Positions 21,701-64,000 of a stretch of 64,000 nucleotides of DNA are shown in pieces. A program made the position numbers and the translations under genes. Below the pieces are notes generated by a model, which saw nothing but the letters and a program-made list of their open reading frames with translations, was not told where the DNA came from and did no database searches. Source of the stretch: Bilabrum cf. latius (taxonomy: Eukaryota); contig OZ237755.1 in the NCBI GenBank assembly GCA_965178125.1, positions 682,001 to 746,000 of the forward strand, written 5' to 3'. Within the stretch, counting starts at the first letter, position 1; every line of letters starts with the position of its first letter.

Positions 21701-22859
21701 TGGGACAATGTGTGGTGTAATTCTAGCGACTAACGGCAAGCGTAGCTCGCGGTACGCACGGTATGCATCGATCTTGTAGGTGCACGCTGAGATACTACGG
21801 GAAGCAGAGAAAGGCGGCGAGGCGTTGCGCTGCTTCCGCCTTTGTGAAGAGGTGTACAGCGAAGTACGTGGTTTCAATAGCCTTGGTGCTGTTACTGCTA
21901 TGCGATGTCAAGCTGAAGTTTTACAAGGCATGGGAAAGTTTGAAGACGCTTTGCAAAAATATGAAGATTGCGCTGATCGTTGCAGTGAGACGGGAGAAGA
22001 GTAGTCCAGGTTGGAGTTCGCCGCTGTGCTGTGCGGCTGGGCGTCATGTTTGGACGATACTAACGACTTCAAGCTTGCTGGGCGCATGTACCAATAGTGC
22101 ATGGACATCCGGAAGCCTTTGCTGGGTGAAGCTCACCCGGATTACGCCGATACTCTGAATGACCTTGCGATACACCAGCAAGAGCAGGTGAAACAGTCGA
22201 ATCAAAAGCAGGGCCAAGGACTGCAGGAAGAGCAGGGCCAGCACAGGTACCAAGAAGCAGTGAGAACATTTGAAAAGTGTTGCCAGATCACGGAGACCTG
22301 CTATGGTAAGGGCCACCCCGATTACGTAGCTTCGCTTGCAAACATGGCGAACTGCTTGCGGATGAATGGTGACTATGTTTCTGCGTACGAGCGGTACAGT
22401 GAAGCCGTGAATCTAGCTGAGCAGGCAGCTGGAAATCCTAGCTGGCAGACCGGCAAGCTAATGAGCAGCAAAGCCGCCTGCCAGTTCATCACTGGGTTGG
22501 GCAAACCTGAGGAGGCCCTGGAGCTGTTTTGGAAGGCCGATACCATTCTCAACGAGACCGGTAGGGTGGATGAAAATCCAAGCTAGTATGCCGATCACCT
22601 TGAAAATATGGCGGAGTGTTTGGATGCTACTGGCGGGCATCGTGAGGCTGTGTAGATGTACCGCAAGTGCCTCCATATTCGGAAGAGTGTGCTCAAACTG
22701 GGGCAAGACCACCCGTAGTTCGTAACTGTGCAGCACAACTTGGCATTAAGTCTGGAGAGACAAAAGGATATCGAAGAAGCCTCGGAAAAGGATCAAGCGG
22801 GTGTATCAGTATCTTCCGAGGCGTAGGGCGGCGGTCGGGAATCCGACTCGGGATGCTGA
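18768..22859 (+). CDS. Clu-domain plus C-terminal TPR (kinesin-light-chain-type) protein, ~1,363 aa
   Basis: Single frame with 14 TAGs (19050, 19185, 19677, 20025, 20187, 20391, 20811, 21777, 22002, 22095, 22584, 22653, 22716, 22824), ending at TGA 22857. Clu-like motifs GYAGGIK..LFFKFALDDKSMYGS, LRVGSPDGGITIH, DVEVH...MVLDTHRLLIP, MHSLGLGLRHV. TPR motifs LGEAHPDYADTLNDLA, YGKGHPDYVASLANMA, LGQDHP. Confidence 0.8.
20630..20690 (+). repeat. 15-bp coding tandem repeat x4 (EIESK EIESK ETGSK ETGSK)
   Basis: GAGATCGAGAGCAAG x2 followed by GAGACYGGGAGCAAG x2. Confidence 0.9.
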
Positions 22860-38466: not shown

Positions 38467-41400
38467 ATGGATAGCCCCGCTAGGAGCACCCGATCAAATG
38501 CTACACTGGGATCGAGACAAGTTGCTTCAACGGCTGCTGATGAACTAGCCCAGATGCCCGAGCTGACGCGACTCTATTCGGAGGAAGAGCTGCGCATCCT
38601 TGGTGAAATTGTTCAATACGCGAACTAGGCATCTGGAGCGTCGGACTCTCCCATGCGCGGGACACGCGGAGCGGCGCCTTCGCTCATTGATGTGCTTAAG
38701 GCGTATGATGCGGTGCTTCGTCGCGAGGGTGTGGACGCTGATAGCGACACATTCTTCTACAGGACAATATTGCGTATGAGCTTGGATCCGAGTGCAGACT
38801 GGTGGACCAAACTTGAAAACGAACGACGTGTGAGCGCAGAAGTGGAGCAAGCTACCCAATTCGACTTGCCGCTCATAACCTGATTTCATCGGATTTATGT
38901 CAACTTGAAGCCCCATTTCCTTACGTGTTCTGTCATTTTAAACTTTGAGCGCAGGAAAATGAGCAGGAGTTCGCAGCACAGATCGTGGCAGCCTCGAGAG
39001 CCTCCCCCGGCGGAATGTCAGTGCGCAGCGTCGCTTCCAATGCGCGGAGAGGACATCCCAGAAACGACCCCTGGAGCAGCTCGAGACCCAAATCTTCAAC
39101 CGCTGCTGAAGTGTCCTCGCGACCCGGTGCGGCCGCACGCGGAGACGGCGGGGTGCTGGGCGACAGCCTCCGCCGATGGATGGACCACACAGGCGTAGAG
39201 GCGGCCAGGAGGGACAGGGGCAGCAGCGGCGACTTCCGTACGCGAGTGGGCAACGGAGCACGACTAGAGCGCAGACTATCCGGCGTCGGAGGCGTCCCGC
39301 GCACGCTGGCGGATCCACCCCCGCCGCCGCCGCCTCGCGCTGGCGAACCAGGGAGGAACGTTCGATATGTAGACCCGCAGACCCCAGCGCGGGGGAGTGG
39401 TGTCCCCCGTGACGGCCTCGGCGCTAGCCTAGCCTCCCGAGGGGACGCCCTGGGCGCAGATGCTCTCCGTGCCCCCGGGGAGCCACGGGCACCGCCTGCT
39501 TCTTCCTCTTCCTCTTCCGCCAGTCCGGAGCAGAGGTCCAGCTCGCCCTACCGCCCTTCTTCGTCGCCGTCACCGCCACCGCCGTCATCCTCGGCCAGGA
39601 TGCCAGGACACGGCCAGGAGGCGGGTTCGGCGCACAGCCGCCGCAGCGGATTCGGTGTGCAAGAGGAGGACGACGAGGATTACGGAGGTAGGCGGTCCTG
39701 GCGCGGATCCGGAGCCGAAAGGACCGGGGGAACAAGATCGAGCGATCTGCGCGCGGGTGGCAGCCCGACGTACGACGGACTTGCCATGGTCCGCGGAGAC
39801 AGGGGCAGGGACACCAACGGGCGAAGGAGCAGCGAAGGAGGGAATGGCAGCGGCACCCGCGCTAGCTCTGCGGGGCTCGGCAGAGATGTCTATGGAGTCG
39901 AAGGTGAAGATGGAAACGATGCCCAGCACGACGGGGCGCTTGCAGGTGGTGATGACGACGACGACCAGGCGCTGGTGGACGGCGGCCGCTGGCAGGACCC
40001 CGCCAGCTTCCTCGAGTTTCGGCTGATGGCCGTGGTGTTCCGGTCGTGGGCCAAATGGCTGCTCCACAGGAAGCTTTCTCAGGACGGCGACTACCAGAGG
40101 GAACAAAGGCTGAGGCAGCAGCTCCTCGTTGCGTCGGTACGGCACGAGTCCAGGCTCATGGAGGTTGCGTTCGGCGTGTGGAGGAGACAGGCTCTCGAGT
40201 CGCGAGCGCTGCGGAGGAGGATGGGCGACCTGACTGGAGTGTGGAGACGGCGCCGCCGGCGAGACGCCTTCTACGCCTGGAGGGAGGCCGTCCTCGACGC
40301 AAGGGCAGTGCCCATTCGAACCAGGATGCAGGCGTGGGTGATGTTCAAGTGGATTTCCAGGTCGCTGCCTGACAGGGGCGAGGCATGGACGGGCAACCAG
40401 CTCGACCGGCTGCTCGCTAGACTGGAGGGAGGCCCGGGGGCAGCGGCGGCGCGCCGACTGGCCAATGGGTCGCCGCGCGCGGGAGGAGGTGCCGCCAGCG
40501 GGGCGGGTGCCATGGTGCCCGTGTCCGGCGGGGGCGCAGCGGCGGCGGGAGACACAGAGCGGCTATCGCAAGACATGAGGACGCTCACCGCAGGTGGTGG
40601 CAGGGCGGTGCACGTGCTGGCGAGCGCAGCGTCAGACTGGATCTCGCCGGATGCGCCTCGGGCGGCCACGGACCGCACCACCGACGCCGCCTCGCTCGCC
40701 GCTCAGATCGCGGCGGCCACGCGGCGCAGGGGTGACTTCCGCACCCTCTCGGCGCCTAGGCTTAGAAGGCTACGGCGCTACCTGCTGAGTCGGGTGCCGG
40801 TGAGGCCAAATAGGCTGGTTCTCTTGGAGAGCGCAACGGCTCGCGTCGATGCGCATTATCTGCTCGGTGTGTTTGCGGCACTGAAGCAGCAGGCCAGGGC
40901 GAACAAAGCCGCTAGGCGACGGCGGTTGGTGGAGACGGGCCGTTCGGCTCTGAGGACCTGGCGCGTCCACGCAGCGATGATCGCCGCACTTCGAGAGCGG
41001 ATGGTCCAATCGGGCGAGAAGCAGAATCAGAGACTCACCCAGCGCGTGTTCCGTCGCTGGCACAAGGCTGCCGATCTGGGCCGAAGGGAGCGGATCCACG
41101 ACCAGGTGGCCCAGAGGAGGAGCAAGCTGAGGGTGTGGGCCAGCTGGCGCCGGGCCTTCGTCACGAGGCGCGCGGCTAAGGCCAGCTTCGGCAGGATGTT
41201 TGTGCTCAGGTTTTTCCGGAAGTGGGCGGATCAGGCGCGGGAGGGCGCGAAGGTCAGGCGGGCTGTGCAGCGCTGGCACCGCGCCTCTCTGTTCAAGGCA
41301 TGGGGCAGATGGTCCCAATTCCACGCGGCTCGATCGGCCGCCATGCACGACGCCTCTGAGCAGACCAAGGCCCTGGACTCGAACAGCAGGAAGCAACGGG

Positions 41401-44400
41401 CTTGGCAGGCGTGGGCGAGGGCCCTGCACCAGCAGGAGGTGGTGCGGCGGTGCGTGCAAGCCATCCGCATGCGGTCGGCGGCTGGGGCGTTTCGCACCTG
41501 GAAGGCACGCGCGGGGCGCATGGCCGAGTTGCGTCGTCTGGAGATCGTGGTGGCCGAAGAGGTGCGCTGCGCTCACCTGAGGACGAGGACCTGGTCGTCT
41601 TGGAAGGATGCACTCGCTCGCCTTCGTGCTGGCCGGAAGGCCATGGCGTTCTGGCAGCGCGGGACCGTCGCTCGGTGCTTTGGCGCACTGAAGAAATCCG
41701 TGCGCGACACGAAGCGAGCGGCCGAGAAGATGCGGCCGTTCCTACTTCGTGTGCAGAACCGCGTGGCCGCGACCGCATTCGCGACGTGGGTGCACCGCGT
41801 GCAGGAGGCCCAGGACCTCAGAGAGAAGCAGAGGCGAGCCTTCGCGATCTGGACGCAGGGCACACTAGTGCGTACGTTCAGGGCGTGGGCAGGCATGGCC
41901 AGGACCAAGAAGGCGGGCAAGATGATGGCGGACCGCGTGCTCCGCGCGTGGAGGATGCAGACAGCAGCGCGGTGCTTCCGAAGCTGGGCTGCGCACACCG
42001 CCGAGGCGGTTTCGATGCGCGATAGGATGCATACCGTGGCGCGGCAGCTCCTTCACATGCGTACTGGGAGGGCAGTGCGCGCCTGGCGGGAGTGGTCCGC
42101 GGAGCGGGTCGCGGGCCGCGAGGCCATGCGCCGCGCAGTGGTCCGGTTCCGCAACGTAAACACCGTTCGCGCCCTCAACCAGTGGCACGCCTGGGCCAGC
42201 GAGAGAGCCGAATCGAAGCGCAAGGCTAAGCACGCCTTGGCCAGGCTGCTCATGTCCAGGCAAGCCCACGCCGTGTCGCACTGGAGGCAGTGGGCCGCCG
42301 GCATTAGGGAACACAAAGCGATCATGGGAAAGGCGCTGCATCGGATGAGGCACGCTGGCCTCGTGCGCGGCATCACCCAGTGGCGGCAGTGGGTGCAGTC
42401 GAGGAACCAGATGCGGGAGAACATGCGGCTTGTGGTGATCCGAATGCAGCACGCAAGGGCCGGGGCCGGGCTGCGCGCCTGGATGGAATGGACCAGGGCC
42501 AGGCAGCATAAGCGTGAGTCCATGCAGCGCGTGGCGCAGCGGCTGAGCAAGCACCGAGAGGTTTGGGGGCTCTCCCGTTGGGTGCAATTCGTGCAGAGGC
42601 GCAGGCACGCTCGAGAGGTCATGGAGCGGTCGGTGCGCCGGATGCTGTTCGTCCAGGGTGCACAGGCAATCCAGCGGTGGAGAGAGTGGATGGATGAGCG
42701 GAACGATGCAAGGCAGCGCCTGTCCATCTGCGTGGCTCGCATGAAGAACGCGCGGTCTGGCGCTGCCCTCCGCTCCTGGGCCGGCTGGGCGCAGGCTCGA
42801 GGTGAGAACCGTAGGCTGATGCAGGCGTGCGTGACGAGGATGAAGAACCACCGGAGGAGCTCGGCGCTCCGCACCTGGGTCGGTTTCGTGCAGCGGAGGA
42901 ACGTCGCGAGGGAGCTCGGGAGACGTGCTGTGCGACGCATGCAGATGGTCAGCTGTGCCCGGGCGGTCGACACGTGGACGGACTGGCTGAGGTGCCGCAC
43001 CGAGGCAAAGCAGCGAATGCGAGCGGTGATCAGGCGGATGCAGAAGGGCAGCGCGGTCCGCGCCCTCACTCGCTGGCGCAGGAACACGCAGCACAGGCGG
43101 TCCGAAAGGGCGCTGCTGCAGGGCGTCGTGAGGAGGCTCAGGGGGTCGAGGCAGGGCAAGGCTCTGCGCACCTGGAGAGACTGGGCAAGCGACCGGGTAG
43201 AGACAAGGGACCGAGTTAGGCTGGTGGTTGTCAGGCTGCAGAGATCGCGAGAAGCGTCTGCCGTGAGGGCGTGGCACGACTGGGCAGAGGAACGTGTTGT
43301 CAATAGGAATGCGCTGCGTCGTGCGGTGTCTCGGTTCACCCAGGTGACCAGCAGCAGGGCTTTCTACACCTGGCGCGTGAATGCGTCGGAGCAGAGGTGG
43401 GAGCGGGAGTCGATGCGCAAGGCGCTCTCGTGGCTCACTGGCGGGTCCAAGAGGAAGAGTTTCTCAGTGTGGAAGCGCAACGTACGCACGATCCGAAGGG
43501 AGCGAGCGATGCTGGACCGGGCCGTCCGTGGCATGCAAAATGCCAAGGCAAAGTCTGCCATCAACAAGTGGCGCGAGTGGACGGGCGAGCGCCTGCACAC
43601 GCACGATGTCATGGCCGCCGCAGCGCGCGTGTTTAGAAACAGAGGGGAGAAGCGTGCCATCAACCAGTGGCGCGAATGGGTTGCAACCCGGGCTTACAAC
43701 CGCGGTGTGATCCATCGCGCGGCGGCTCGGTTGCGGAACCGAGCGATGACGTCGGCATTCTTCGGATGGCGGGAAGCTGCGTCACAGCAGTCGCTGGGAC
43801 GGCTGCGGATGACGGCATGCATTGAGAGGCTCCTGCAGAGCAAGACGCGAGCTGCGTTCGAGCAGTGGTTGGCTGTGCGCGATGAGAGCCGTGAGGACGA
43901 GCGCAAGATGAAGTATGCCATCACGCGGATGCAGAACAGGGGCCTCGCAGGAGCCGTCGATACGTGGCGGGGCTGGGCAACAGACCGCGTGCGAATCAGG
44001 GCCGCTGGGCAGCGGGTTCTGCTCCGCTGGCAGCAGTCCAGCACCGTGCGCGCCCTGAACCAGTGGTCCTCATGGACGGCGGACAGGCTGCAGAGGAGGG
44101 AAGCGATGCGCCGCACGGTGGCGATCATGAGGCAGTCGGGCACCAGCCGCGCCATCCGGCAGTGGCGCGACTGGATGGAAGAGAGGGCGAGGCAGAAGGA
44201 GCTGATGAGGCAGTGCATGGTCCGCCTGCAGCACTCTGGGCTGGCTCGGGGCCTCCGCAAGTGGCGCGACTGGTGTGACGAGCGCGCTGCCAGCCGCCAG
44301 CGAATGCGGGCGGTGCTGCTGCACTGGCGCGGGCAGCGCATGGCCAGGGCGCTTGCTAAGCTGCGTGAGAATGCGGCACAGAGGCAGCTGGGCCGGCTGC

Positions 44401-47400
44401 AGATCCAGAGCGCGATGGCCATCTGGAGGAACTCCCAGGCTGGTGCAGCGTTCAGGGCCTGGCGCCAGAATGCAGACGAGCAGCGGCGCGAGCGAGAGAT
44501 CACGCAGAAGGCCATGCGGCTGTGGGAGCTGCGGACCGCTGCGGCTGCCTTCCGCGCGTGGAGAGACAACGCGTACGCACAGGCCGAGAATCGGGCCCTG
44601 GTGCAGCGTGCGGCCGCGAAGTTTGCCCACGCGCTCGAAGCCAAGGCCTTCAACCGGTGGAGGGTGTCAGCCCAGCAGAGGATGCAGGCGCGCAGGGTGC
44701 TCCACGGGTGGATTGAGAGAACAAAGTACCAGGCGTGGCGGCAGTGGGTGGCGGCGACCAGGCATGCGATCAGCGAGGAGCAGCAGCAGAGGGAGATGGC
44801 TGCACGCGCTCTCGGATTCTGGACGAAGGGCACGGCCCGCCGCGTGTTTGACCGATGGAGAGGGCACACCGACTGGCTGGCGTCTCTGCGCGAGCGTGCT
44901 ACGATTCTGCAATCCAAGGCCGCCGAGTGGAGGCTCCGGGGTGCGTTGAAGCAGTGGCACAACGGGCTGGTTGCGGTGGACTACAATCGCAGGAGGCTGG
45001 CCAACGCCGCGATGCAGGAATGGAAGGCAGCGGCGCGGATGGGTCGCTAGGAGAAGGCTCAGGTGAACAGCTTCGACCGCAGGGTGGACAGCGCGGGGAG
45101 GTTTGAGGCCGTGCAGTCGGCAGTCACGCGCATCGCCAAGAGGCCCATGGGAAAGGCTTGGAACTCGCTGGTACTGCACGCCAGACAGAGGCGCTTCCAG
45201 AGGCTCTAGGTGGTGATGGCACTGACACACTTCAAGAGGAACGTTCTTTGGAGGTCGCTCAGGCAGTGGGACGCTGGTGTCAGGGTGCAAAAATCTGAGC
45301 GGGCAGCTACGACGTACTACCAGTACGGCCTCAAGGCCAGGGTGCTTGATGCTTGGGGCGAGACAGCGGCCACCATCCGAGTGCAAAGGCACAAGATGGC
45401 CAGACTGGCCGCGGTCGCGCTGGCACACCGCACCGAGAGAAGTCTTGGCTCCCATTTCCGCGGCTGGGCCGCGTACGTTGGCTGGCGCAAGCAGCTGAGG
45501 CTCCGGCTGTCTGCTTTCCTGTCCAAGCAGCGCTCTTCGGACCTGCAGTCTTCCTTTGAGGCGTGGGCGCACGAGGCCAGGAGGAGGAAGAGGCTGCGCG
45601 CCGCCGTCACGGGCTTCGTGTCGAGGACGACCAAGGGCAGGCTGCAGGCCGCGATCGGGGACTGGCGTGCGTGGACCGCCCGCACTGCGTGGGCTCGTAA
45701 GGCCGCACGGCGGTTCTTTGTGGGGTCCACCACGGTGCGAGCCTTCTAGGCTTGGGCTGCCTTCAGGGCGCAGAAGCAGAGGATGCGCTCGATCGAGGAG
45801 CAGGCCAGCGTGATGAGGGCCCGCATCCACGGGAGGCTGCTCAAGACTGTGCTCGCACAGTGGAGCAGGGCAGTGCGCATGGAAAAGGCGGCGGGCGCCC
45901 TCCGCAGGCGCTTCCTCCAGTCTAACCTGAAGCCCGCGGTATTCCGCCAGTGGCGCGACGGCTTCCGGATGCGCAAGTTCTAGAACAGCTAGGTGGCCAA
46001 GATGATGATGATGCGGGCCATGACGGGCAAGCGCAGGGTGTTCGAGACTTGGAGGGAGGCTTGGATCGAGGGGAGGAGGGTCAAGGGCATCGCCACCACG
46101 GTGTTCCAGCGCTGGAGGCACAGGAACGAGTCCAGGGCCATCCACAGCTGGAGGGAGTGGGCCGCCAACCGGATTCGAACCCGGGAGGTGGGTACGGCCG
46201 CGGCAATCCGGATCGCCAATGCCAGGCAGGTGTCCGCTGTGGCCAGGTGGCGGGAGTGGGCGGGCGAGCGCGCGAGGCTCCGCCGCGCCGGGATGATCGT
46301 GGCCACTCGATTCCGTCGGCAGAAGGAGGTCGGCGCGCTGTCGCAGTGGCGGTCCTGGGCGGCTGCACGCGTGGAAGGCCGCGCAAAGCTGAGGGCCGCG
46401 GGCGCGCGCATGCGGATGCTGGGTGAGTCGCGGGCGCTGCGTCGGTGGTGCGAGTGGATCGGGGCCAGGAGGCAGGCCCGTGATGACCTGCGTCAGGTGC
46501 TTGCCAAGGTGCAGCTGTCTCGCGAGGCAGCCGCGCTCCGCACGTGGATGCAGTGGACGGGCGACCGCGCTGCGGCGCGAAAGTCCATGGCGAGAGCAGT
46601 GCACCTGATGCGGAACTCTGGGCTGGCGCGCGGCCTCAGGCAGTGGCGGTCGTGGACGAGTCAGACTATCCGCAACAGGTAGCTCCTTATGAAGGCGACG
46701 GGCGCGTTCCGCCTGCAGTCCTGCAAGCTGGCCATCAATCGATGGAGAGAGCTGTGCGCTCGGCAGCAGACAGCAAGGGACATCGCTGCCAGGGCCGTGC
46801 TGCGTTGGACCCAGGCTTCCATGGCGCGCTGCTTTGCCGGCTGGAAGGCGAATGCCACAGAGCAGAGGGATGCGAGGGCACGAGCCGCCGAGATGTTCCG
46901 CAGGAGGATGGTGCGGGATACGCGCACCTTTTTCGGGGCGTGGCGCGACACGGCGCAGGAGATCCGGTTGAACCGAATCGCAGACCACACGAGGGCGAGG
47001 ATCGTGTTTGGTCGCGCGGTGGGCACCTGGAAATCTTTCTGGCAGGAGCGCAAGGCGATGAGGAAAGCCGTCCTCCGGCTGACCCACATCAAGCAGGCCC
47101 GGGCTCTCGACGAGTGGAAGCGATTCCTGGTATTGCGACGGGTGGGTCGCCTGGCCTTCGGGCGCAAGCAAGAGCTGAAGAAGAGGATGTTCCGGAGACT
47201 CGCCGCCGCTGTCAAGGAGCAGAAGCGCGTGCGCCGAGTGACCAAGTCGGCGCTTCAGCTCTTCAAGAACAGGACCCTCGCGAGCTCGTGGCAGAAGTGG
47301 AAGGCCTTCATGAAGGTTCGCAAGGCTCTGAACGCGTTCTTCGACACGCGAATGGACCGTCTCAAATCGGACTGCTTCCGCAGGTGGCTGCTGGGTGCGG

Positions 47401-50228
47401 CAGAGTCCAGGCGGCTCAGGATCGCCTCGGAGCGAGTCAAGGACGCCCTTGGCGTGCTGGGCAAGCGGCGCGCCTGGGACGCGTGGCGCGCGGCGTACCA
47501 GCAGAGGCAGATCGAGCAGAAGCAGAGGATGCGGCGCTGCTTCGCTGGTATCCGAGCTTACGCGCGCAGGAGGCAGCTCCAGGCTCATAGGCTCTGGCTG
47601 GCACGTGCCCAGATGCTCAAGAACACCGCGCTTAGGGTACTCCTTGCATGGCGAGGGCACGTCATCGACGCGAAGAGGCTACGCATTAGCAGGATTCAGG
47701 AGCAGCAGCTGAGGATCAAGCTTCAGAGGCGCGAGATGCGCCGCCGACTTGGACTCATGGGCCGCGTGATGCAGCAGTGGCGCGCCGTCGTGATCAGGGA
47801 GAGGCACCTTGGCCACATCGCCAAGAAGCTGCAGAGGTGCTTTGGCGGGCCGCTCCGTAACGCCTTTGATCGCATCCGCCAGGACGCAGAAGACAGCAAG
47901 GCGGAGAAGAGAAGCATGCGCAAGGCGGCGCAGACGTTCCGACGCAGGGGCGAGAGCAAGGCGATGAATCGCTGGCGGCAGTTCGCTGCGGGGCGGGCCC
48001 GGAGGAGGGAAGCCATGCGGGCCGTGGCAGCCAGGGCTGCGAACCTGCAAGCATACCGCGCCCTGAGGCAGTGGAGGACCGCCGCCTCAAATGCCACGGC
48101 AAAGCGGGCCGCCCTTCGGCAGAGCGCTGCAGCTGTGGTGGAGGGCCGGCGGCACAAGATCTTCTCGAGGTGGTTCCTTGCCGTCAGACGCAAGCGCGCG
48201 GCTGCTGCGGCCCTGCGGATGTGGTCCGGTGGCAAGCTAGCGGCTGGCTTCGCCCGCTGGAGACGGTTCTACCAGGGTGATAGGGCGGCCGAGATGCGCT
48301 CGGCGGCTCTTCGGTTGCAGTGCAAGCGTGCCTTTGAAGTGTGGAGGGAGAACGCGGAGCACCAGGGCAAGGTGCGTCGGGCGCTTGAGGCGTTCTCTGG
48401 CCGGCGATCAAAGCACTGGCTGGGGCAGCACCTGCGAGCGTGGCAGAATGTTTCCCTTGCCCAGATCTTTCACCGAAACAAGCTGGCCGTGAAGTCCTTC
48501 CGGGGATGGTCGCGGCTGAGCGAAGGTAGCGGTGAGCGAAGCAAGGAGGCCCTAGAGCGCGCCGTCAGTCTGTGGACAGGCAGCACAATGAGGAGGTCAT
48601 TCGCTCAATGGGCGCATGAGGTCAAGTCGAGGCGCAGTCACAAGCAGAAGGCTGCTTCCGCACTTGTCCGGGCGTTCTCCCCCATGCTAGTGCGGGCGGA
48701 GCGGAAGGCTTTCCGTAAGTGGGGTACTGCCGTGCGCCAGCGAGCAGCGCTGGAGAGGTTCATGCACAGTTAGCCGAGGCTCCAGCTCAAGAGGACGGTC
48801 CGGTGGATGGCCAAGTGGACAAGGGAGCGACAACGCAGAAGGCGGTTGATGGAGCGAGCCAGGCAGTGGCACTACCACAGCCATGTGTCGTCCGTGTTCA
48901 ATCGGTGGTCCGGGCTTGTCATGGCGGGGCGGCGCAGCCGGCCATCGTCTGCCGGTGGTGGACGCAGAGTGGGAGGCAGGCGCGGCAGCATCTTTGACCT
49001 CGGCGTCGGCGGGCTGTCTGGGTCGCGAGCTGGGCGCGCTAGCGATGCGCTTCGGGGTGACAGGGTGAGTCGCACGATCGAGGACAAGCTTGAGGAGGTG
49101 ATCGAGTCGATGGGGAGGTCGCGCAGCAGCGGCGCTAGTAGTGTCGCTTCCGGTGGCCGGCGGCTGACGCCTGGTGAGGCGCTGATCGACCGCGACTTGG
49201 AAGATGATGAGGCTCGTGCGGAGCACGATCTCCTCGCTAGGGCACGGGAGCGCGCCCAGAGCGGCGTGCGAGGCGGCAGTATCGGCGGTAGAAGGAGAAG
49301 GCGTGGTGGTGACAGCAGCGCTGCAACGAGTGTCGCCATGGCATTCGAGGAAGAAGCCATGCGGCGCGCCGGGCTGCCTCTCAAGCCACCCAGGGGCTGG
49401 ACAGGTCGAGGCAGCCCGGGTGCTGGCGCTGGTGCTGGGGCTGGCATGGGCGACGACCGCGACAGCCACCCCGCTCTGTCGCCGTCCCAGTGGCACGACT
49501 CGCGCGAGACGTCGCCTCACCTCGAGAACCTGTCGCCCGAGGACGTGGTGACACGCAGGGCGGCGAGGGTGCTGGCTTCCCGCCCACCAGCGGGCCCTAG
49601 CTTGGGAAGAGGCGGCAATGGGCGCCCGCCTGCGCGCCTGCCCGTCCCTAGCAGCTTCGGTGTAGACGCTGCCGAGCGGACCAGGCGTGGCTCGCGCGGC
49701 TCCGCTTCCCTTCACGGGGACTCCTCGGCCCGCAGATACGCACATGGCGGAGGGGCTCCCGTGGGTTACGGAAGCCCCTAGGATGCTGCGCCGATGCGCC
49801 GCCCCAGCGTGGGATCGAGAGCCAGCAGCGGCGGAGCGAGCAGTGGCCTGTTCGACGACGATGAGGACGAGGCTGATGCGCTTTACACGGCGCGGGCTCG
49901 CCGTGAGGCGCAGGAACAGGGCAGGGCAGACTATTTCGAGAGGGTTGCCAGCAAGGCTCTCTCGCCGCCCAGTGGACCGAGGTCGGGTGCAAGGGCGCGC
50001 CGGGCCATGCAAAGGCAGAGGGAGCTGGCGATTCGTCGCGCCGAGGAGGAGGCACGGGCACAAGAGGCGGTTGCTGGTCGATCCGAGGAGGTGCAGAGGG
50101 CTTTTCGCGGCGCGGTGGGAGCCACGGCGACCTATGGTGGCGGGGAGGCCACGGGACTTGGAAGGGGTCTGAGTGCCAGCGCTCTGGCCACTGGTCGGAG
50201 GTCTTCCAGGGGCAGCGACCGGCTTTGA
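38467..50228 (+). CDS. SFI1: Giant Sfi1-family centrin-binding protein, ~3,878 aa, exons 38467-38829 and 38955-50228
   Basis: N-terminal LKAYDAVLRREGVDADSDTFFYRTILRM resembles the Sfi1 N-terminal motif. A very long Arg/Ala/Trp helical region carries (A/F/L)xxW(R/K) repeats, 33 aa apart where measured (~42080-42290). The frame continues through 9 TAGs (38626, 45048, 45207, 45747, 45981, 45990, 46680, 48771, 49779) to TGA 50226. Confidence 0.85.
38830..38954 (+). other. Intron of the SFI1-like gene (125 nt)
   Basis: GTGAGC donor, GCGCAG acceptor, phase 0, AT-richer than the exons. Links ORF 38653-38883 to the 38985 frame. Confidence 0.8.
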
Positions 50229-55038: not shown

Positions 55039-58000
55039 TCACGATGCTGCGTTGGACCGCCAGTCGTACTCGAAGAAATCAACCCGCACAGCACGCACCT
55101 TGCCCGGAGTGGACGGGGCTGGTGCTCGCTGCATATCTGAGTCCGACTCAGACGAAGTGATCCCCTTCCAAACTACATCATGCCGTGTGTACTCACCATC
55201 CAAAGCTGGACAGTTGGCCGGGAGCCACCTAGGAAGCCCGTCAGGCGCGATGGGCCCCAAAAAATCCTAGCAAGCAGCCGTAGGAGCACCTGCTCCCCTA
55301 CCGGATTCTGTAGTCTTAGAATGGCAGGTACTCGGCTTCAGCAGACCTAGCGCGACGAGCGAGCACCCATGTTTCCCACATGAGCCTCTGGCAGGCGCAC
55401 CTGGGCTGGCCCCGCTGCTGCTCGCTCTAGAAGTTTGTGCAGATACCGGTTCAATCGCCCACTTGCCACTCAATGCGGAGGACGCAGGGCTAGTGCCATG
55501 CAAGAAGCCACCGGCCTGTGCACCAGCCCCTACCATCGAGCCAGCACCGATCGGTGCCCGAGTCTAGTCGCCCTTGCGCTGCTGCGCCGTTGCTTGCTCC
55601 CTGGCACGCACCGTCCTTGCCGCAGCCGCCGCTAGACCTGAACCCACCCACCCCAGAGCACTCGCAATGGCGGCACGGACCGGTGGTGGGCCATACCTGA
55701 ACGCAAACCGGACGATCGCCCCGTAGGAATTCCTCTGCCCTGCGCATGGCCTCCATCCCAAGTCCGGGCGGATGCTACCTGCGGAACTGGAACGGGCGCC
55801 GCGCACCGACAGCCCGGACCGAGTTGTCTCCCTGCTGCCTGTTTGGCTGACGATCCGACGGATTGAACCCTCCTCCTCTTCAGAACCCGTCCTAGCGGAA
55901 GCGCTTCCCGCGGCGCTGGTATCTCCAGTTCGTGCCCCACGTTCCGAAGAATCGCGGTAGCTTGTCGTGGATGCTGTAGGGCTCGCCCCACCGCCATGTG
56001 GCCCAGGTGGTCCCACTGCAGCGCCCTTAACGTCATCTTCCATCCAGCCAACCGCCGCCCCCAGCCCGAAGCAACCGTTCCAGCTTCCGCCAAAGTCGCA
56101 CATGTACCAGCTGAACAGCTTGCTCATTCGCACGTGCACGCTGCCTGCCTTCGGCACACAAGACGCGCCCTTTCCACTCGCAGTAGCGCAAGCACCCGCA
56201 GCATCAATAGCCCGCTCCAAAGCCCTTTCTGCGCCGTCGCCTTCTGCCATTGACGCAGCCCAAGCCCACAGGACTGCTGCGTCGGTGGCGCGGCCATTCC
56301 CACGCTCGCTCGTACCACCAGCGGCAGATCCTCCCGAACCGCCCTCTTTGCTTCCTCCCTTACGCGCGCTGTCTTCCTGCGATTTGCACACCCAGTTCAG
56401 CGACAGCCCTAGCCTCACGTCGAGAGACCTGGGGTCGCTGAGAAACGCCTCGGCTGCGAGGTCCAGGGCTTTCCCGAGGGGCGAATCCAGCCCAGGGAGA
56501 CCGTTCGTTGTTCCCTGGGCAACAGATCGGGTCGACGGCTTGGTCGCAACCGTGTCATCGACCACTCGGTCCTTCATGCTCGCCTGAGGCATGGCAACCG
56601 AGGTCCCGGAGCTGCCCGAACCTGTGCTCGCAGACCGCTGGCGAGGCCTCCCCAAAGCTGAAGGACCCGCACCGCTGTTGCTGCTGCTCTCAGAGTCCAA
56701 GCTGTTCGCACAGCCCGCACCAGATGCTGGAGGTTGTGCCGCGCTGTCCAGGCTCTGGTAGGCGGTCGTGCGCGAAGTTGCTTGCAGCTCCAGCATCTCC
56801 ACGCGGTCTGTGTCCCTGGCTGCAGCTGAAGACAGGACGGGCGAGAGCATCGAAGCAGACCTACGCCTGCGCGACCGAGGACCGTACACATCCGTGTCTT
56901 CGCCTTCGTCCTCGTCTTCTTGCCCAGGCTCCCTGGCCTGTCCAGGTGCCTCCCCTGCCGCCGCCACCGATGATGGTGATGATCCAGCATGGACAACAGG
57001 AACAGGGGCAGGGGTGCCTGCCGTCTCCTCCTCAGCCTCAACTTCAAGGTCACCTGCATCATACAGCCGGAGCGGCGGGCACGCCCTCGCACCGCACACG
57101 AGAGCAAAGTGCACCCTGCAATCGGTGCCACCGCCGCGCGCCAGTGCATTTGACTGCCTGGCGTCTCCAGCCGCGAAAGGCTGCCCGCACATCCACTGGG
57201 GTAGCACGGAGGGCGGGCTCTTGTTCCCTCGAAGCACCCCGTGCTCGATGTCATCGAGGGTGTACTTCCAGGGCCCGATACGGTAGGACACCCCGCCGCT
57301 GCCGAAGAGCTTCCGCCGGCCCCAGGCGCTCAGCGTGGCCGCAGGTGCTTCGGCGCCGCGCGTAGCCGCGTGACCAGGTTCCGCAAGCGCGGCCTCTGAT
57401 TCCGGGTTGGTGCAAAGCAGCGCCAGCGCGTGCAGACAGAGCGCGTTGTACAGGTTTAGGAAGAAGGCTGCCCTGTGCGCCGGAGGCAGTGCCGATGGGT
57501 CGCACGCCTGCAGCGCAGCAGCCTGCTGCACGTAAGCAGCAAGCGCGCTCCCCGCCCGCATCCTGCCGTAATCGACGTAGTGCCCGCACATGCTGAGGCT
57601 GTCCTCCAGCAGCTCCAGCTACCGAGAGTGAAGGTCCTTCGCTAGCTGCAGCGGATCCACCGGCGGGCCTGCGTACGCCGCCGCGCAGTTGAGCGGGAGG
57701 CCGCTTACCAGGCACTCGCGAGAGGCAGCGGCCGGCAGCGTGAGTCCGTTCCGGAGGAGAGGGATTTCATTCCCGCCACAAGCTGGTGTACCTTCCACTG
57801 CCCTTGTCCAGGGCTGCGGAACCTCCTGCGGCGCCGCGAAGGCCACGCCGGTGTACCCGTGGCTAGTTGGTCGCAATGCCGCGGCGCCTGTTAAGAGAGC
57901 CTCGTCGGCTGCAAACCGCCACAGCGAGTGCTCGCCTGACGACCCCTTGTTCCCTGGAAACACGTTGTTCCCTCGTGCCGATGCCACGGCCCCTCCGTTC

Positions 58001-59499: not shown

Positions 59500-59992
59500 C
59501 CCCAGTGCCGTCTTGAAAGATTCCAGGCTCGTCAACAGGCGTACCACGTCCCGTGAACAATCTCAGGCTAGGACAAATAGCAAGTTGGGGTTGTGATGAA
59601 CTATATCACTCCTTTAGTTGAGTTCTGAGAGGTAGCAACTGGCCTCGCCCAGTGCCTGAGAAATGATAAGTTGGTGAAGTGGTGATGTGACAGCCTGATG
59701 AGGTCCCGCTGCAGCAGAAGCGACGTGGTGCAGCCTTCCGAAGGTGCCAACGGCACTATAACGGTTGAGCGCCGCAGTCTATGGTATCAGGAGATAGTCT
59801 ACCCTGTTTTTCTAGAGATGGCAAGTGCGCAGCTTTGTTTACGGCTCAGGGCCCGAATTGCTTGGGCCTCCAGCCTCGAGCCCAGAACGGCGACTCTGCT
59901 TTGTGTGATGAGTGCACAACCATGAAGATGAATGTGTGATAATAAAAATCGGCCTGCTTGAGGGGGGTTTTCAGCCGGAAATATCAAAAGCC

Positions 59993-60721
59993 ATGCGTAG
60001 AACTAGTGTGTTTAGAGCCATTAAATTATGTGCAACCGGATTTCGCGGAGCTAGTCCTATCTTCTGTGGAAGTATTCGATAGTTTGCTTCCGGATCTGAC
60101 GCAGTCGACAAGAACCTCAAAGCTGCGAGGGAAGCTGCCCGAGAAATGCAAGGAAAAGTCAAGCTGCAGTATAAGAAAGACCCGGGGCTTGCCAAATCGC
60201 TTGCCACAGCATCTTGCGTCGTGCCGGGATTCGTGGAGCCAATCAGCGATCAATCACCGCATTGTTTTGTGGCCAGGCAGCCAATGCACAATAAAGAAGG
60301 AGAATCCCACATCATGGGACTTGCTCCATCTACGGGTGGGAACGAGAACTATGGGTGCAGCGCTGACATGGTGCTGTAGGCCCTGCTCGGGTGCACCGGC
60401 ACGACGCTGCGCGCTGTGGCTTCGGCGCGAGGGGCCATATTCGACCGTTGCGTCATCGAGGCGGAAGGCGACTACGATGCGAGAGGCACACTAGGTGTCG
60501 ACAAGGCCACGCCTGTGGGAATGACGGCCGTTCGGCTCCGCTATCGATTCGAAGTTGGACGCTCAGTTGCTGCCGGGCATGTGATCGGGAGCGCGGACTG
60601 GGAGAAGGTGCTCGCCACGACGGAGAAGTACTGTGTTGTGGCTTAGACCCTAGCAGCAGGACTAGAGGGTGGAATCGAGACATCGTACGTCATCGACCAC
60701 TCGGCCGCAGACGAGGCGTGA
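59993..60721 (+). CDS. OsmC/Ohr-family protein with a putative mitochondrial presequence, 242 aa
   Basis: MRRTSVFRAIKLCATGFRGASPIFCGSIR(TAG)FAS...GLAPSTGG...CSADMVL(TAG)ALLGCTGTTLRAVA...AEGDYDARGTLGVDKATPVG...TEKYCVVA(TAG)TL; both family cysteines present. TAGs at 60080, 60377 and 60644; TGA at 60719. Confidence 0.88.
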
Positions 60722-61631
60722 GCAGAGGGTGTTAGCCTTAGGCCTACAGAAAAGTGGAACATCATTTACTGGTGACCATCTACATATGCCTGCAAGTACT
60801 GTTGACATCCGTAGTGATTTCAAGTAGAGCTGCAGGTCAGCAGGACCCCATGGGTGCAAAGTCGAGGACCAATCTGGTCACTGGACCCGCACGCTTGAGT
60901 CGGTCACCTTGCTGCTCCGTGTGGAAGCGACTGCAGCGACATGACCAGGAAGCGCGTGTTGTCGCTGCAGTCTTGCTTTGCTGCAACCAATCAGGCCAAA
61001 TTTTGACCTGACATGCCATGCCATGAAGCGCCCAAAGAATCAACCAGTTCACAGTGCCCTATTGAACCTAGACTACAGATCAGATTTGTTCCACACCGAT
61101 CGGATCACCACTGGCTGGCAGTTGTCAAAAAGGAAAAGTCCTGCTCCCGGTCCCGCGGACCCACTGGGCTTTACCCCGCACGACTGGTTCTTCACCAGCC
61201 CACCTGCATGCGGTATTCCTCTGATACTACGGATGTACACACCACTTTCACAATGCATATCGACTGGCCTCGTTGCCACATGGCTTCCTGTTTCTGTTCC
61301 CCGCCCTAGGGACCGTGTGCGCTGCTCCCTGTATCGCCACCTTGGCCCTATCCTCTCAGCTTGCATGTGGAGGTCCTGGCCTAGCTGCCGTGCGCCCCAT
61401 CCATCCACCCGCCTGTTGGCCCTCTGCGCGCTGCTGGCCGTACAGCCCGCTGCCACTCGCGTTTCAACTGTGCCTGGCTCATGGAGCCCCCTTCTTCCCG
61501 TTGTGCTCCCCCATTGACTCCGCGCTATTGCCGCATGTGCTGGTGTCCCCTCCTGTCCTCCTGTCCGTCGGCGTCCGCCTCTTCCGGCTCACCTCTGCTC
61601 CCGCCCACTTCCGTCCTGATCTTCAAGAACA

Positions 61632-64000
61632 TGTACCATGTGCAGCGTCTCGGACAGTGGTCATCAACGAAGAGCACGACCACCTACATCTGGCAGGAAG
61701 CCGACGGGCTACAGGCGATCGATATTGGCTGCCAGTGGTCGCACGTGGAGCTGCAGCGTGCTCCACACGCAGCGCTGCTTGAGGCAGTTGCTCAAGCGTG
61801 AGCGTCCTGCTGATCCCGACTTCCGTAGAGTCACTTCGCCTTGCTTCAACGAGCCCCCTGTAACCATTCTGTAAGGAAGATGCGGTAAGACATGGAGAAT
61901 TCGTTGTGTGTCACCACTATTGGACAAAATCTATCGGTGGATACAGGCACATGGCGACGGCTCTGTGTTTGATGCCATGTCTGGTTGTATTTTGGTGGTT
62001 GAGTCTGCAAAAGAAGCTTTCACCATGGAGGTCACGATGTCGTGCTCATCACGGCGTGACGCAGGGCCTGTGCGGCAGCGAGAACGAAGATGCTTCACAT
62101 ACAAATAATGTAGCCAAGTCATAACGTGCAAGTTTTGGACACAATTGACCAAATTCGCGAGAATTTACGGTTCTGGCCCACGTCGTTTGATCAGAGTGGG
62201 GCCTTCCGCCGCGCAGTTCTGGCAGTGGCGGTCCTCCCAGATTCGCAAGGCAGCCCAGCTGCCGCAGCGGAAATTCAGAGTCTAGCTGATGTTGACATCA
62301 ACGAACGTCTAGGATTTGACAATCTAACAGCAATACGCCTATACACTGACGTGTGCCGCGCGCTGCTGCCAGTGTGCACGCCATCTGTCGGTCTCTCGGA
62401 GCTGCAGCGACTCTGCGCATCGAGGGCCACTCAGCTTTCGCTAGCTATATCTAGCGCTGAATTGCAGCACTGCTTGCAGTATATTGCCTCTGTAGCTGAT
62501 TCAGACGGCACAATGCTTCCCACAGAGACGATTCGAGACAGGCTTGTATCCGCGGTCACAACCAGGGCCTCTACCGGTTCGCCTAGCGTGGGGGCTATAA
62601 AGAAGGAACAGAGTACATCCGAGCGCACTGCACAGGATCAAGCGCCAAGATAGACCGTGCCCAGTTCCTTGTCTGGCCAGCGGACGAGTAGTTCGTAGCA
62701 GGTGCCAACCCCGAGCAACGCTTGGTCGAGCTCAGGCAGGCCGGCGAGCGCAGCAGGCCCCACGGCATCGAGCGTTCCGGACAGAGAAACAGCCTCATCC
62801 ACCGCGACTCAGAGCGTTTCTGACCTTCATTTCGCGGTTGGAATCGAAAGCGATCACGATTCGGAGACTGCAGTCGAGATGGGACCGGTCGGCTAGGCCT
62901 CGCCCTTAGCTACCCCTGCCGGAGGGAGTGGTGGTCGTGCTAAATCTCCTTGTCCTGGCCCTGTGCAGGCCGCAAGAGATGGAACTGGAAGAGCCAGGGC
63001 ATTCAACAATGATTCAGTGTTTCATGGGGCTCCCTGCCACGACAGCAACGATTTCCTGCGTCATGCCAGTGCCGCCATCCATGGTCGCACGGCTCTTGAC
63101 CCTGGGCCCGAGTGGAGGGCAGTCACACCGACGCGAGGCCCAGGTTAGGACAACGAAATGCAAGACAATGGGGCCATGGACGGAGAGAGAGGACGACTAA
63201 GGCCAGACCTGGGCAGAATCACCTCGTCATCCACGACCTCGTCGTCCTGGTCGTCTGCATCCCAGCTCGCAAGAGGCCTCGGGGTCGTTGGTAGCGAGGC
63301 TGAGGCAAGTTCAGGCGCTGCTACTTGTTCTGACATGCGCATCAGCTCCAATCACCGGTCATCGAGCGCTGACGAGAGGTTCAGCGCAAGCAGCCTTGAC
63401 TTGGAAGAGGCAGAGGATTTCGATGGCCTCTCACCGCTGGCAACGGTACCGGGCTGGGGCGGCTGCTCGCCAGTGCGGTCGTCTGATCGCAATGCCGTGA
63501 TAAATACCAGTTGCAAGACTACCAGCTCCGGCCTATCATTGGATCGCCGCGAGTTGCTGCCTCACTCGCTGCAGCCAGCGCCACAGGTGCCCACGGGATT
63601 CAATCCAGCAAGCCGCACTGGGCAAGTGCAGATGCAAGGGGCGCAGATTCTCGCTTTTCCGGACGATGGAAGCTCCGGCTACGCAGCTTCGCACCAGCAT
63701 CCTACATCCATCTCGCACATTGCATCGATTGGGCGGGCTCCACCGCAGCCAGGTGCATCCAAAGCCGGCAGCAGCAGCAGCAGCAGCAGCAGCAGCCACG
63801 CAAGCCATCAGGTTCCCGTCATGGACTGGCACTCCGGCCCGCGGACCCATAGTGCAGCGATGAGCGGATCCACCGATGCGTACCTCATGACAGTTGCAAC
63901 CACCTCCACAGCTAGATCTATGGCACACCTAGCCGGATAGAAGCGCAGTGCTGCGGGCATGCAGTCCCAGTCGGTTCAAGCCCCCCGTGGGGCAAACGGT
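61632..64000 (+). CDS. Hypothetical protein, multi-exon, 3' end off-window; 5' structure uncertain (may start near 61023)
   Basis: ORFs 62126-62653, 62702-62896, 62963-63148 and 63158-63940 share one frame linked by TAG only (62111, 62651, 62696, 62894, 63146, 63938) and stay open to 64000. A putative phase-2 intron 61798-62064 (GTGAGC...ACGCAG) links them to an upstream exon. No family recognised. Confidence 0.55.
63768..63796. repeat. (CAG/AGC)n trinucleotide run encoding poly-Ser
   Basis: About 9 perfect units. Confidence 0.9.

What the first reader, a model, noticed from the sequence alone, without database searches (positions are those of the whole stretch)
59993..60721. TAG occupies glutamine positions in conserved motifs (best single test: OsmC-like gene)
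Seen: KYCVVA-TAG-TL (60644), DMVL-TAG-ALLGC (60377) and IR-TAG-FAS (60080). From my recollection of this OsmC-like subfamily the motifs are (R/K)YCVVxQTL and DMLL(Q/E)ALxAC, and R-Q-F-A-S is a typical mitochondrial cleavage context. Further support: TPR MYQ-TAG-CMDIRK (22095; cf. YQQALEIR) and Sfi1 RAF-TAG-AW (45747) against RAWQAW in the same protein (~41398). Inference: TAG = Gln rather than Leu, Trp, Tyr or Pyl. Glu is the only close competitor.
Basis: partly seen in the sequence, partly recalled or inferred. Interest (0 to 1): 0.85.

Follow-up and report, generated by a model that had tools for sequence, protein, structure and literature searches.

The report
In-frame TAG codons, probably glutamine
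In this GC-rich microbial eukaryote the usual stop signal TAG is used inside genes as an ordinary codon, most likely for glutamine though glutamate is not excluded, so standard gene finders cut its genes into pieces.

Summary
TAG is certainly a sense codon. The 11 genes of the window hold 106 in-frame TAG but 0 TAA and 0 TGA in 17,634 codons. All 9 complete genes end in TGA. A relative in a metagenome contig keeps TAG at one of the OsmC sites.

One OsmC column (KYCVVA-x-TL) is strongly Gln: Q 84 of 126 homologues, E 3. The relative has CAG there and at one DUF547 site. The other alignable OsmC column is E 88, Q 38. The third TAG lies in an unconserved presequence. The TPR column is R 78, E 45, Q 39, and the relative has E. 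The Sfi1 column is R 24, E 2, Q 1.

A formal tally of all columns and ortholog pairs gives Q 0.57 and E 0.43, with every other residue below 0.001. The acid-free presequence and the published predominance of Gln raise my estimate for Gln to about 0.7-0.75. No tRNA could be examined, because no genome is held. The code type is known; the lineage was not identified.

The parts
59993..60721 (+). OsmC-like gene, 242 codons plus TGA, with three in-frame TAG codons and no intron
   Evidence: Pfam PF02566, 45 bits. Contigs of four runs cover it with 0 differences and 0 joints.
59993..60097 (+). N-terminal extension of about 35 residues that looks like a mitochondrial presequence (6 R/K, no D/E). It is absent from the bacterial homologues and holds TAG30.
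   Evidence: Translation. Alignment A1 shows the bacterial homologues starting near residue 44. The relatives' N-termini are likewise basic and acid-free. The targeting function is inferred.
60080..60082 (+). TAG codon 30 (SIR-x-FAS). The column is not conserved.
   Evidence: 149 of 150 homologues have a gap here. The relative reads ..NPFRFAS.. without a TAG.
60362..60664 (+). OsmC domain (residues 124-224) with the conserved Cys134 and Cys214. It spans TAG129 and TAG218.
   Evidence: Invariant columns.
60377..60379 (+). TAG codon 129 (DMVL-x-ALLGC). The family column is E 88, Q 38. TAG is conserved in the relative.
60644..60646 (+). TAG codon 218 (KYCVVA-x-TL). The family column is Q 84, E 3 of 126. 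The relative has CAG.
60719..60721 (+). TGA terminator of the OsmC gene
57619..57621 (-). TAG codon 643 of the DUF547 gene (DLHSR-x-LELLE). The relative has CAG in a context with 8 of 10 flanking residues identical.
22002..22004 (+). TAG codon 1102 of the CLU/TPR gene. The relative P0180 has E, next to a gap.
22095..22097 (+). TAG codon 1133 of the CLU/TPR gene (MYQ-x-CMDIRK). The relative has E. The TPR column is R 78, E 45, Q 39.
22716..22718 (+). TAG codon 1340 (HP-x-FV) at the 'HPD' column of the TPR unit: D 73, E 19, N 14, Q 6 of 160
45747..45749 (+). TAG codon 2255 of the Sfi1-like repeat protein (RAF-x-AW). The repeat column is R 24 .. E 2, Q 1 of 59.
46680..46682 (+). TAG codon 2566 of the Sfi1-like protein. 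The repeat column is E 18, R 13, A 13, D 6, K 6, Q 5 of 66.

Best explanation
The window is nuclear DNA of an intron-poor, GC-rich (about 0.6) eukaryote that makes centriole-associated proteins. Its cytoplasmic translation reads UAG as a sense codon, most likely glutamine. UGA does the terminating, and UAA is not used as a sense codon.

Shown here:
- TAG is frequent in frame, about 0.6% of codons.
- It lies inside conserved domains.
- It is kept at an orthologous site in a relative.
- It alternates with CAG at two strongly conserved sites.

Inferred, not shown: UAG is decoded by a tRNA-Gln with anticodon CUA, derived from tRNA-Gln(CUG) by one anticodon change. Failing that, tRNA-Gln(CUG) reads it by first-position wobble. 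In either case an eRF1 that no longer recognises UAG would be needed. The OsmC-like protein itself is an ordinary two-cysteine OsmC-family protein with an N-terminal presequence, probably mitochondrial.
For: TAG is a sense codon:
- Frame 1 of 11 genes holds TAG 106, TAA 0, TGA 0 in 17,634 codons. The off frames hold TAA 44/69 and TGA 269/371.
- 9 of 9 complete genes end in TGA.
- ORFs of 3,400-3,700 codons appear only if TAG is read through.
- Homology and the Pfam domain continue across the TAGs in one frame.
- Metagenome contigs L001/L002 carry an ortholog (73% identity) with TAG at the same column 129, next to a syntenic DUF547 gene with 6 in-frame TAGs of its own.
- Contigs of four runs from three studies cover 59984-61058 with 0 differences and no joint, so the TAGs are neither assembly errors nor spliced out in those contigs.

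The residue is Gln:
- OsmC column 218 is Q 84 of 126, E 3. Among homologues at least 45% identical it is Q 26 of 30, E 0. At 40% or more it is Q 68 of 84, E 1.
- Both alignable OsmC TAGs must carry the same residue. Of 124 homologues with a residue in both columns, 25 have Q in both, 3 have A in both and 1 has E in both.
- The relative has CAG opposite our TAG at OsmC 218 and at DUF547 643, both in well conserved contexts.
- With substitution frequencies taken from the same ortholog alignments, Gln beats Glu by 2.3 nats (flank identity at least 4 of 10) and by 4.0 nats (at least 6 of 10).
- Pfam scores, Q minus E: OsmC +1.3, CLU +0.3, C2CD3_N +0.1 bits.
- TAG30 lies in a 35-residue N-terminal stretch with 6 basic and no acidic residues. 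That mitochondrial presequences avoid acidic residues is established knowledge, recalled here.
- TAG counts per gene or block follow CAA better than GAA, by 4.5-9.7 nats, but with bootstrap support of only 69-88%.
- Gln is by far the commonest published meaning of reassigned UAG/UAR (PMC5304391 abstract and Background; PMC11687900 abstract and two Discussion passages).
Against: - OsmC column 129 favours Glu: E 88 against Q 38 of 146, and E 19 against Q 14 among the closest homologues.
- The relative's CLU fragment P0180 has E opposite our TAG1133, and probably opposite TAG1102.
- The relative's TAGs stand opposite our E575 and E594, in a recurring x-V/I-P-L motif.
- Sfi1 repeat column 20 is E 18, Q 5.
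- All four TPR columns have E at or above Q in raw counts: 19:6, 8:5, 11:7 and 45:39. Pfam TPR_12 scores 1.5 bits higher with E.
- With BLOSUM62 the ortholog pairs favour Glu by 1.1 nats. The whole independent-column model gives Q 0.57, E 0.43. Without OsmC column 218, Glu leads by 3.3 nats.
- Neighbour-residue context does not single out Gln.
- No tRNA, aminoacyl-tRNA synthetase, eRF1 or peptide evidence could be obtained.
Confidence: 0.72

Rival explanations
1. UAG is a sense codon for glutamate, read by a tRNA-Glu-derived CUA tRNA. UGA terminates and UAA is not sense.
For: - OsmC column 129 is E 88 against Q 38.
- The relative has E at CLU 1133 and 1102.
- The relative's TAG stands opposite our E575 and E594.
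- Sfi1 column 20 is E 18 against Q 5.
- The TPR 'HPD' column is D 73, E 19, Q 6. TPR_12 scores 1.5 bits higher with E.
- The model without OsmC column 218 favours E by 3.3 nats.
- UAG or UAR = Glu has precedents (PMC10553269 and PMC12153298, abstracts as shown in the search listing).
Against: - OsmC column 218 is E 3 of 126, and 0 of 30 among the closest homologues. Only 1 of 124 homologues has E in both TAG columns, against 25 with Q in both.
- The relative has CAG at two strongly conserved TAG sites.
- No TAG pairs with D, although E pairs with D in 23 of 148 cases in the same alignments.
- An E would be the only acidic residue in the first 35 residues of the presequence.
- GAA predicts TAG counts worse than CAA does.
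- Glu is the rarer meaning in the literature read.
Confidence: 0.22
2. UAG encodes some other residue (Lys, Ala, Arg, Ser, Leu, Tyr, Trp or pyrrolysine), or is decoded ambiguously as more than one residue.
For: - Ortholog partners of TAG include A (4), P (2), K, R and G.
- Sfi1 column 6 is R-dominated.
- UAG = Leu and UAG = Ser exist in other eukaryotes (PMC11687900, Discussion passage).
Against: - In the combined tally every residue other than Q and E is at least 9.7 nats worse.
- In the OsmC columns L is 1 and 0, S is 2 and 6, W is 0 and 1, and K and Y are 0 and 0.
- Lys is rejected by per-gene counts by more than 22 nats.
- At 0.6% of codons, TAG is far too frequent for a Pyl-type recoding signal.
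Confidence: 0.04
3. The TAGs are not translated. They would be sequencing or assembly errors, pseudogene lesions, parts of unrecognised introns, sites edited to CAG in the mRNA, or real stops with occasional readthrough.
For: - One canonical intron does exist in the window, at 33650-33744 on the minus strand.
- The kind of the possible RNA runs is only guessed, so editing is not formally excluded.
Against: - There are 106 TAG but 0 TAA and 0 TGA in frame. Random lesions would include the other stops.
- TAG sits inside conserved motifs, with homology continuing in frame on both sides.
- TAG is conserved at OsmC column 129 in a relative that is 27% diverged in protein.
- Independent runs of three studies give identical letters, with no joint across the OsmC gene.
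Confidence: 0.02

Closest known systems
UAG-only reassignment to Gln with UAA kept as stop: Iotanema spirale (Fornicata), Protocruzia tuzeti, Hartmannula sinica, Trochilia petrani. NCBI table 15 has the same codon table (recalled).
   Same: UAG alone is a frequent sense codon, and UAA does not appear as a sense codon. Here TAA is 0 in 17,634 in-frame codons, against 172 CAA. Gln is the favoured meaning.
   Different: In those organisms UAA is the primary or preferred terminator (PMC5304391 abstract; PMC11687900 abstract). Here all 9 complete genes end in TGA and none in TAA. The DNA is GC-rich and intron-poor, which does not look ciliate-like (my judgement). The lineage is not identified, and the Gln meaning is not proven.
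UAR (UAA+UAG) = Gln codes: many ciliates, Dasycladales and Cladophorales, hexamitid diplomonads, Streblomastix, the aphelid Amoeboaphelidium protococcarum
   Same: A stop codon is reassigned to Gln and UGA is the working terminator.
   Different: TAA is never in frame here. By analogy with CAA:CAG = 172:552, about 30 TAA would be expected beside 106 TAG if TAA were a Gln codon of similar standing. That expectation is my own arithmetic.
UAG or UAR = Glu codes: Oligohymenophorea sp. PL0344 (UAA=Lys, UAG=Glu), Blastocrithidia (UAR=Glu, UGA=Trp)
   Same: This is the rival meaning that the data do not exclude. Several TAG columns lean to E.
   Different: In those codes UAA is also reassigned, and in Blastocrithidia UGA as well. 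Here TAA and TGA are absent from the reading frames. OsmC column 218 argues against E.
UAG = Leu (rhizarian exLh, a phyllopharyngean lineage) and UAG = Ser (Scotinosphaera)
   Same: Only UAG is reassigned.
   Different: L and S are rare in the OsmC TAG columns: L 1 and 0, S 2 and 6. S is 16.5 nats below the best residue in the combined tally, and L is lower still.
OsmC-like protein family (Pfam PF02566), the bacterial subfamily with the motifs DMLL(E/Q)AL..C and E(K/R)YCVV.QTL
   Same: The domain scores above the gathering cut-off. The two cysteines and the DARGTLGV block are invariant across the 10 nearest homologues.
   Different: It carries a eukaryote-type N-terminal extension of about 40 residues and an 8-residue insert (..VAAGHVIG..) that is shared only with the relative.

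Membership tests
Nuclear code with UAG = Gln and UAA not sense (Iotanema type, table-15-like) | In-frame TAG in many genes, including conserved domains, while the other stops are excluded from the frame | tested here: met
   TAG 106, TAA 0, TGA 0 in 17,634 codons of 11 genes. TAG lies inside the Pfam OsmC, CLU, TPR and C2CD3_N matches.
Nuclear code with UAG = Gln and UAA not sense (Iotanema type, table-15-like) | Homologue residues in TAG columns are predominantly Gln | tested here: inconclusive
   OsmC 218 is Q 84, E 3. OsmC 129 is E 88, Q 38. The TPR and Sfi1 columns lean to E or R. Ortholog partners are Q 2, E 4, A 4, TAG 1 and others 5. The combined model gives Q 0.57, E 0.43.
Nuclear code with UAG = Gln and UAA not sense (Iotanema type, table-15-like) | UAA retained as a terminator | tested here: inconclusive
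   TAA is never in frame, but it also ends 0 of the 9 complete genes, all of which end in TGA. The sample is too small to say whether UAA terminates or is simply avoided.
Nuclear code with UAG = Gln and UAA not sense (Iotanema type, table-15-like) | A tRNA with anticodon CUA and Gln identity | not testable with these tools
   No whole genome is held. There are 0 tRNA genes in the window and none in L001 or L002.
Nuclear code with UAG = Gln and UAA not sense (Iotanema type, table-15-like) | eRF1 altered in its stop-recognition motifs | not testable with these tools
   eRF1 is not among the 11 genes of the window.
UAR = Gln code (table 6 type) | TAA as well as TAG is used in frame | tested here: not met
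   0 TAA in 17,634 in-frame codons. No real gene lengthens when TAA is read through.
UAG = Glu code | TAG columns are predominantly Glu, including invariant ones | tested here: inconclusive
   E leads at OsmC 129, Sfi1 column 20 and the TPR columns. The one nearly invariant column (OsmC 218) has E in 0 of the 30 closest homologues.
OsmC-like protein (PF02566) | Domain match above Pfam's gathering score | tested here: met
   45 bits against a cut-off of 27.5, residues 124-224. With X at the TAGs the score is 44.1 bits.
OsmC-like protein (PF02566) | Two conserved cysteines. Their catalytic role is recalled, not tested. | tested here: met
   C134 and C214 are invariant in the alignment with 10 homologues. 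Peroxidase activity was not tested.

The most novel reading that the evidence does not exclude
A eukaryote outside the ciliates reads UAG as glutamate, leaves UAA out of its reading frames and terminates essentially only at UGA. That combination is not among the nuclear codes described in the papers I read. In PL0344 UAA is Lys, and in Blastocrithidia UAA is also Glu and UGA is Trp. If the lineage itself has not been reported, it would be an independent origin either way.
Probability: 0.2. Interest if true: 0.75.

Novelty: new member of a known kind. Interest (0 to 1): 0.5.

Why it matters
Every protein prediction for this organism and its relatives depends on the code. Public gene calls for the relative's OsmC gene are cut exactly at the TAG. 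In this window, 3,400-3,700-codon genes fall apart under the standard code.

Cases where UAG changes meaning without UAA are few, and they bear on how release-factor specificity and suppressor tRNAs co-evolve (PMC5304391). A GC-rich genome that uses TGA for all observed stops and avoids TAA altogether would be a useful contrast to the AT-rich ciliate cases, where UAA is the preferred stop.

The check also gives a practical warning. One or two conserved motifs are not enough to tell Gln from Glu.

Tried and rejected
Searches that gave nothing:
- No whole genome is held, so no genome-wide tRNA or eRF1 search was possible. ARAGORN found 0 tRNAs in the window and none in the relative's contigs.
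- Earlier notes of this scan returned nothing, by place, by sequence or by words.
- No RNA holder is listed among the sequencing runs. Contigs of runs X5-X7, whose kind is only guessed, start at 59984-60006, where the DNA run X1 continues. That is at most a weak hint of a transcript start.
- A near-length homologue search with the CLU/TPR protein returned only generic TPR proteins.
- The 'shorter' search, which I limited to E <= 1e-8, returned one relative fragment. That limit may have hidden shorter fragments.
- The viral-contig scan and the genome-contig scan found no relatives. The genome search on locus L002 failed because the record is not held.
- PDB gave only 2opl, with V at column 129. 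It gave nothing for the CLU region or the USP middle region.
- NCBIfam has no family for the OsmC protein under any of the 10 readings.
- The Atlas confirmed a USP with DUF3517-type relatives but gave no usable taxonomy.
- The gene downstream of OsmC has no alignable ortholog in L002.
- The 7 differences between L001 and L002 all lie outside the coding sequence.

Analyses that did not discriminate:
- Neighbour-residue context of the 104-106 TAGs ranks N and H first, and Q (-11.0 nats) below E (-7.7).
- Poisson regression of TAG counts shows that TAG tracks any A/T-ending minor codon. CAA ranks 2nd or 3rd of 61 and GAA 14th or 9th. Bias-adjusted Q and E counts do not differ, at -0.6 to +2.1 nats.
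- Pfam DUF547 scores are equal for Q and E in both species.

Ideas rejected:
- Pseudogenes or assembly errors, introns holding the TAGs, and Pyl-type recoding. Reasons are given under the rival explanations.
- Literature searches did not reveal a described organism matching GC-rich, intron-poor, UAG sense and TGA stops. They cover only the held library, and supplements were not seen.

Full report
**What is there.**

The region 59993-60721 (+) is one open frame of 242 codons ending in TGA. Pfam OsmC matches residues 124-224 at 45 bits (cut-off 27.5), so the domain runs across two of the TAGs. The match stays at 44.1 bits with X at the TAGs.

The window as a whole is eukaryotic nuclear DNA with GC about 0.55-0.67. 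It holds 11 closely packed genes on both strands:
- a USP-type deubiquitinase longer than 3,579 codons
- an MFS transporter
- a CLU/TPR protein
- a C2CD3-like protein
- a Sfi1-like repeat protein
- a WD40 protein
- a DUF547 protein
- the OsmC-like protein
- three genes without a Pfam family

I found only one intron.

**TAG is a sense codon.**

In the coding frame of the 11 genes there are 106 TAG, 0 TAA and 0 TGA in 17,634 codons. The two other frames of the same genes hold TAG 136/139, TAA 44/69 and TGA 269/371. All 9 genes whose ends lie in the window stop at TGA. Reading TAG through raises the three longest stop-to-stop frames from 2033/1234/1100 to 3759/3585/3462 codons. Reading TAA through changes none of them, and no real gene is lengthened by it.

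A metagenome scan found two contigs, L001 and L002, which are 99.5% identical to each other over 1,419 bases. They come from a relative whose OsmC ortholog is 73% identical in protein. That ortholog has TAG at the same column 129, ends in TGA, and sits next to a DUF547 ortholog with 6 in-frame TAGs of its own. Public gene calls for this relative are cut at that TAG: P0014 ends ..DMLL and P0013 begins at ..LLGC.

Contigs from four runs of three studies cover the OsmC gene with 0 differences and no joint. Errors, pseudogenes and hidden introns are therefore excluded. RNA editing is unlikely but not formally excluded, because the kind of those runs is only guessed.

**Which amino acid: the OsmC test.**

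To avoid bias I searched 1.84 billion representatives with X at the TAGs and aligned the best 150 of 586 hits.

| Column | Residue counts |
|---|---|
| 218 (KYCVVA-x-TL) | Q 84, A 16, R 6, S 6, P 4, E 3, seven others, 24 gaps |
| 129 (DMVL-x-ALLGC) | E 88, Q 38, A 8, D 4, G 4, four others, 4 gaps |
| 30 | 149 gaps |

Among homologues at least 45% identical in the core, column 218 is Q 26 of 30 with no E, and column 129 is E 19, Q 14, D 1.

Both columns carry the same codon in our gene, so the joint test is the sharpest. Of 124 homologues with a residue in both columns, 25 have Q in both, 3 have A in both and 1 has E in both. An earlier search with Q at the TAGs gave Q 8 of 10 in both columns, but that query was biased toward Q.

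However, only column 218 separates Gln from Glu. Codon 30 lies in an N-terminal extension that the bacterial homologues lack. In the relative the segment reads ..NPFRFAS.. without a TAG. That column says nothing by homology. The first 35 residues hold 6 basic and no acidic residue, which fits a mitochondrial presequence. By recalled general knowledge, this makes an acidic residue at position 30 unlikely.

**The other evidence is mixed.**

Ortholog comparison with the relative covered 1,327 aligned positions in OsmC, DUF547 and a 216-residue CLU fragment, P0180. It gave 16 positions that involve a TAG:
- TAG opposite TAG: 1
- opposite Q: 2, both CAG, both in well conserved contexts (OsmC 218, DUF547 643)
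- opposite E: 4 (our TAG1102 and TAG1133 against E; the relative's TAG against our E575 and E594)
- opposite A: 4
- opposite P: 2
- opposite K, R and G: 1 each

With substitution frequencies taken from the same alignments, Gln beats Glu by 2.3-4.0 nats in conserved contexts, but Glu beats Gln by 1.8 nats when all pairs are used. With BLOSUM62, Glu leads by 1.1 nats.

The TPR column under TAG 22095 is R 78, E 45, Q 39 of 191. The other three TPR columns also have E above Q, and Pfam TPR_12 scores 1.5 bits higher with E. The Sfi1-like protein has 75 repeat units. The column under TAG 45747 is R 24, N 7, A 6, D 6 .. E 2, Q 1 of 59, and the repeat profile I built puts RAWQAW at 41397 in another register. 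A second Sfi1 TAG sits in a column with E 18, Q 5.

Pfam scores (Q minus E) for OsmC, CLU and C2CD3_N are +1.3, +0.3 and +0.1 bits. Neighbour context and per-gene codon counts are at best weakly informative. They do reject Lys clearly.

**Weighing.**

I built a formal model from eight family or repeat columns, normalised by this organism's composition, plus nine ortholog pairs. It gives Q 0.57 and E 0.43, with every other residue at least 9.7 nats worse. Without OsmC column 218, Glu would lead by 3.3 nats.

Outside that model, four things favour Gln: the joint OsmC test, the acid-free presequence, the weak CAA-over-GAA signal, and the literature. Gln is the usual meaning of reassigned UAG/UAR: "at least 13 independent" coordinated UAR changes, mostly to Gln, plus four UAG-only cases. 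Glu is known from few lineages (PMC5304391 abstract and Background; PMC11687900 abstract and Discussion passages).

I put Gln at about 0.72, Glu at 0.22, anything else at 0.04 and 'not translated' at 0.02.

**Mechanism.**

Shown: UAG is used as a codon and UGA ends the genes.

Inferred: UAG is decoded by a CUA-anticodon tRNA derived from tRNA-Gln, together with an eRF1 that no longer reads UAG. This is the arrangement described for other UAG-reassigned eukaryotes (PMC5304391 Background). Near-cognate reading by tRNA-Gln(CUG) is the alternative. Neither can be tested here, because no genome is held and the window and the relative's contigs contain no tRNA gene.

**Comparison and novelty.**

The pattern is closest to the UAG-only Gln codes of Iotanema spirale, Protocruzia and two phyllopharyngean ciliates. 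It differs in two ways. TGA ends all 9 observed genes, not TAA. TAA is absent both in frame and as a terminator, so its status is open.

It is not the UAR = Gln code, because TAA is never in frame. The organism was not identified. The Atlas look-up gave no usable taxonomy. It makes centriole-associated proteins (C2CD3-like, Sfi1-like), has short intergenic spacers and almost no introns, and its relatives occur in environmental metagenomes. My literature searches found no matching description, but they cover only the held library and no supplements.

I file it as a new member of a known kind. It would rank higher if the lineage proves unreported or the meaning proves to be Glu.

Noticed in passing
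window 33650-33744 (minus strand), between ORF 33625-34194 and ORF 23282-33589: A 95-nt stretch reading GTAAGT...CTAAC...CAG joins the N-terminal C2 domain (Pfam C2_C2CD3_N) in frame to the 3,435-codon ORF (..LEDS|KTVVLRV..). It is a canonical spliceosomal intron, and the only one I saw in 64 kb. No RNA evidence.
   Followed up: partly
window 61020-62200: Depth in run X1 rises to 13,633, against about 93 on either side, with many short contigs, variant letters and loose ends. This is a dispersed high-copy repeat between the OsmC gene and the next gene.
   Followed up: no
window 33600-38980: A gene-poor stretch with a 1.44-kb direct duplication (35139-35530 and 36583-36972, 90-99% identical) and five tandem copies of a 34-nt unit at 37727-37930.
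   Followed up: no
whole window: TGA ends all 9 complete genes. TAA is absent both in frame (0 of 17,634 codons) and as a terminator, although it occurs 44 and 69 times in the off frames. It is unclear whether TAA still terminates or is an avoided codon.
   Followed up: partly
L001:507-1232 and L002:3525-4250: The relative's OsmC gene is split in public protein collections into two 'proteins' at its in-frame TAG (P0014, 126 aa, and P0013, 113 aa). This shows how standard-code gene calling fragments this lineage's genes. The DUF547/OsmC divergent gene pair is syntenic with the window.
   Followed up: yes
window 38985-50228 (+): A 3,747-codon Sfi1-like protein built of about 75 units of a 31-33-residue W-x2-W repeat. 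It has no Pfam hit at E <= 0.001.
   Followed up: partly
P0180 (relative's CLU fragment), opposite window about 22500-22520: P0180 ends (..AMGEFK) where our protein continues ..GLGKPEEALELF.. . If its terminating codon is a TAG, it would stand opposite one of our E residues, in a TPR column that is E 76, Q 9 of 193. Its DNA could not be fetched, so this is only a lead, and it points toward Glu.
   Followed up: no
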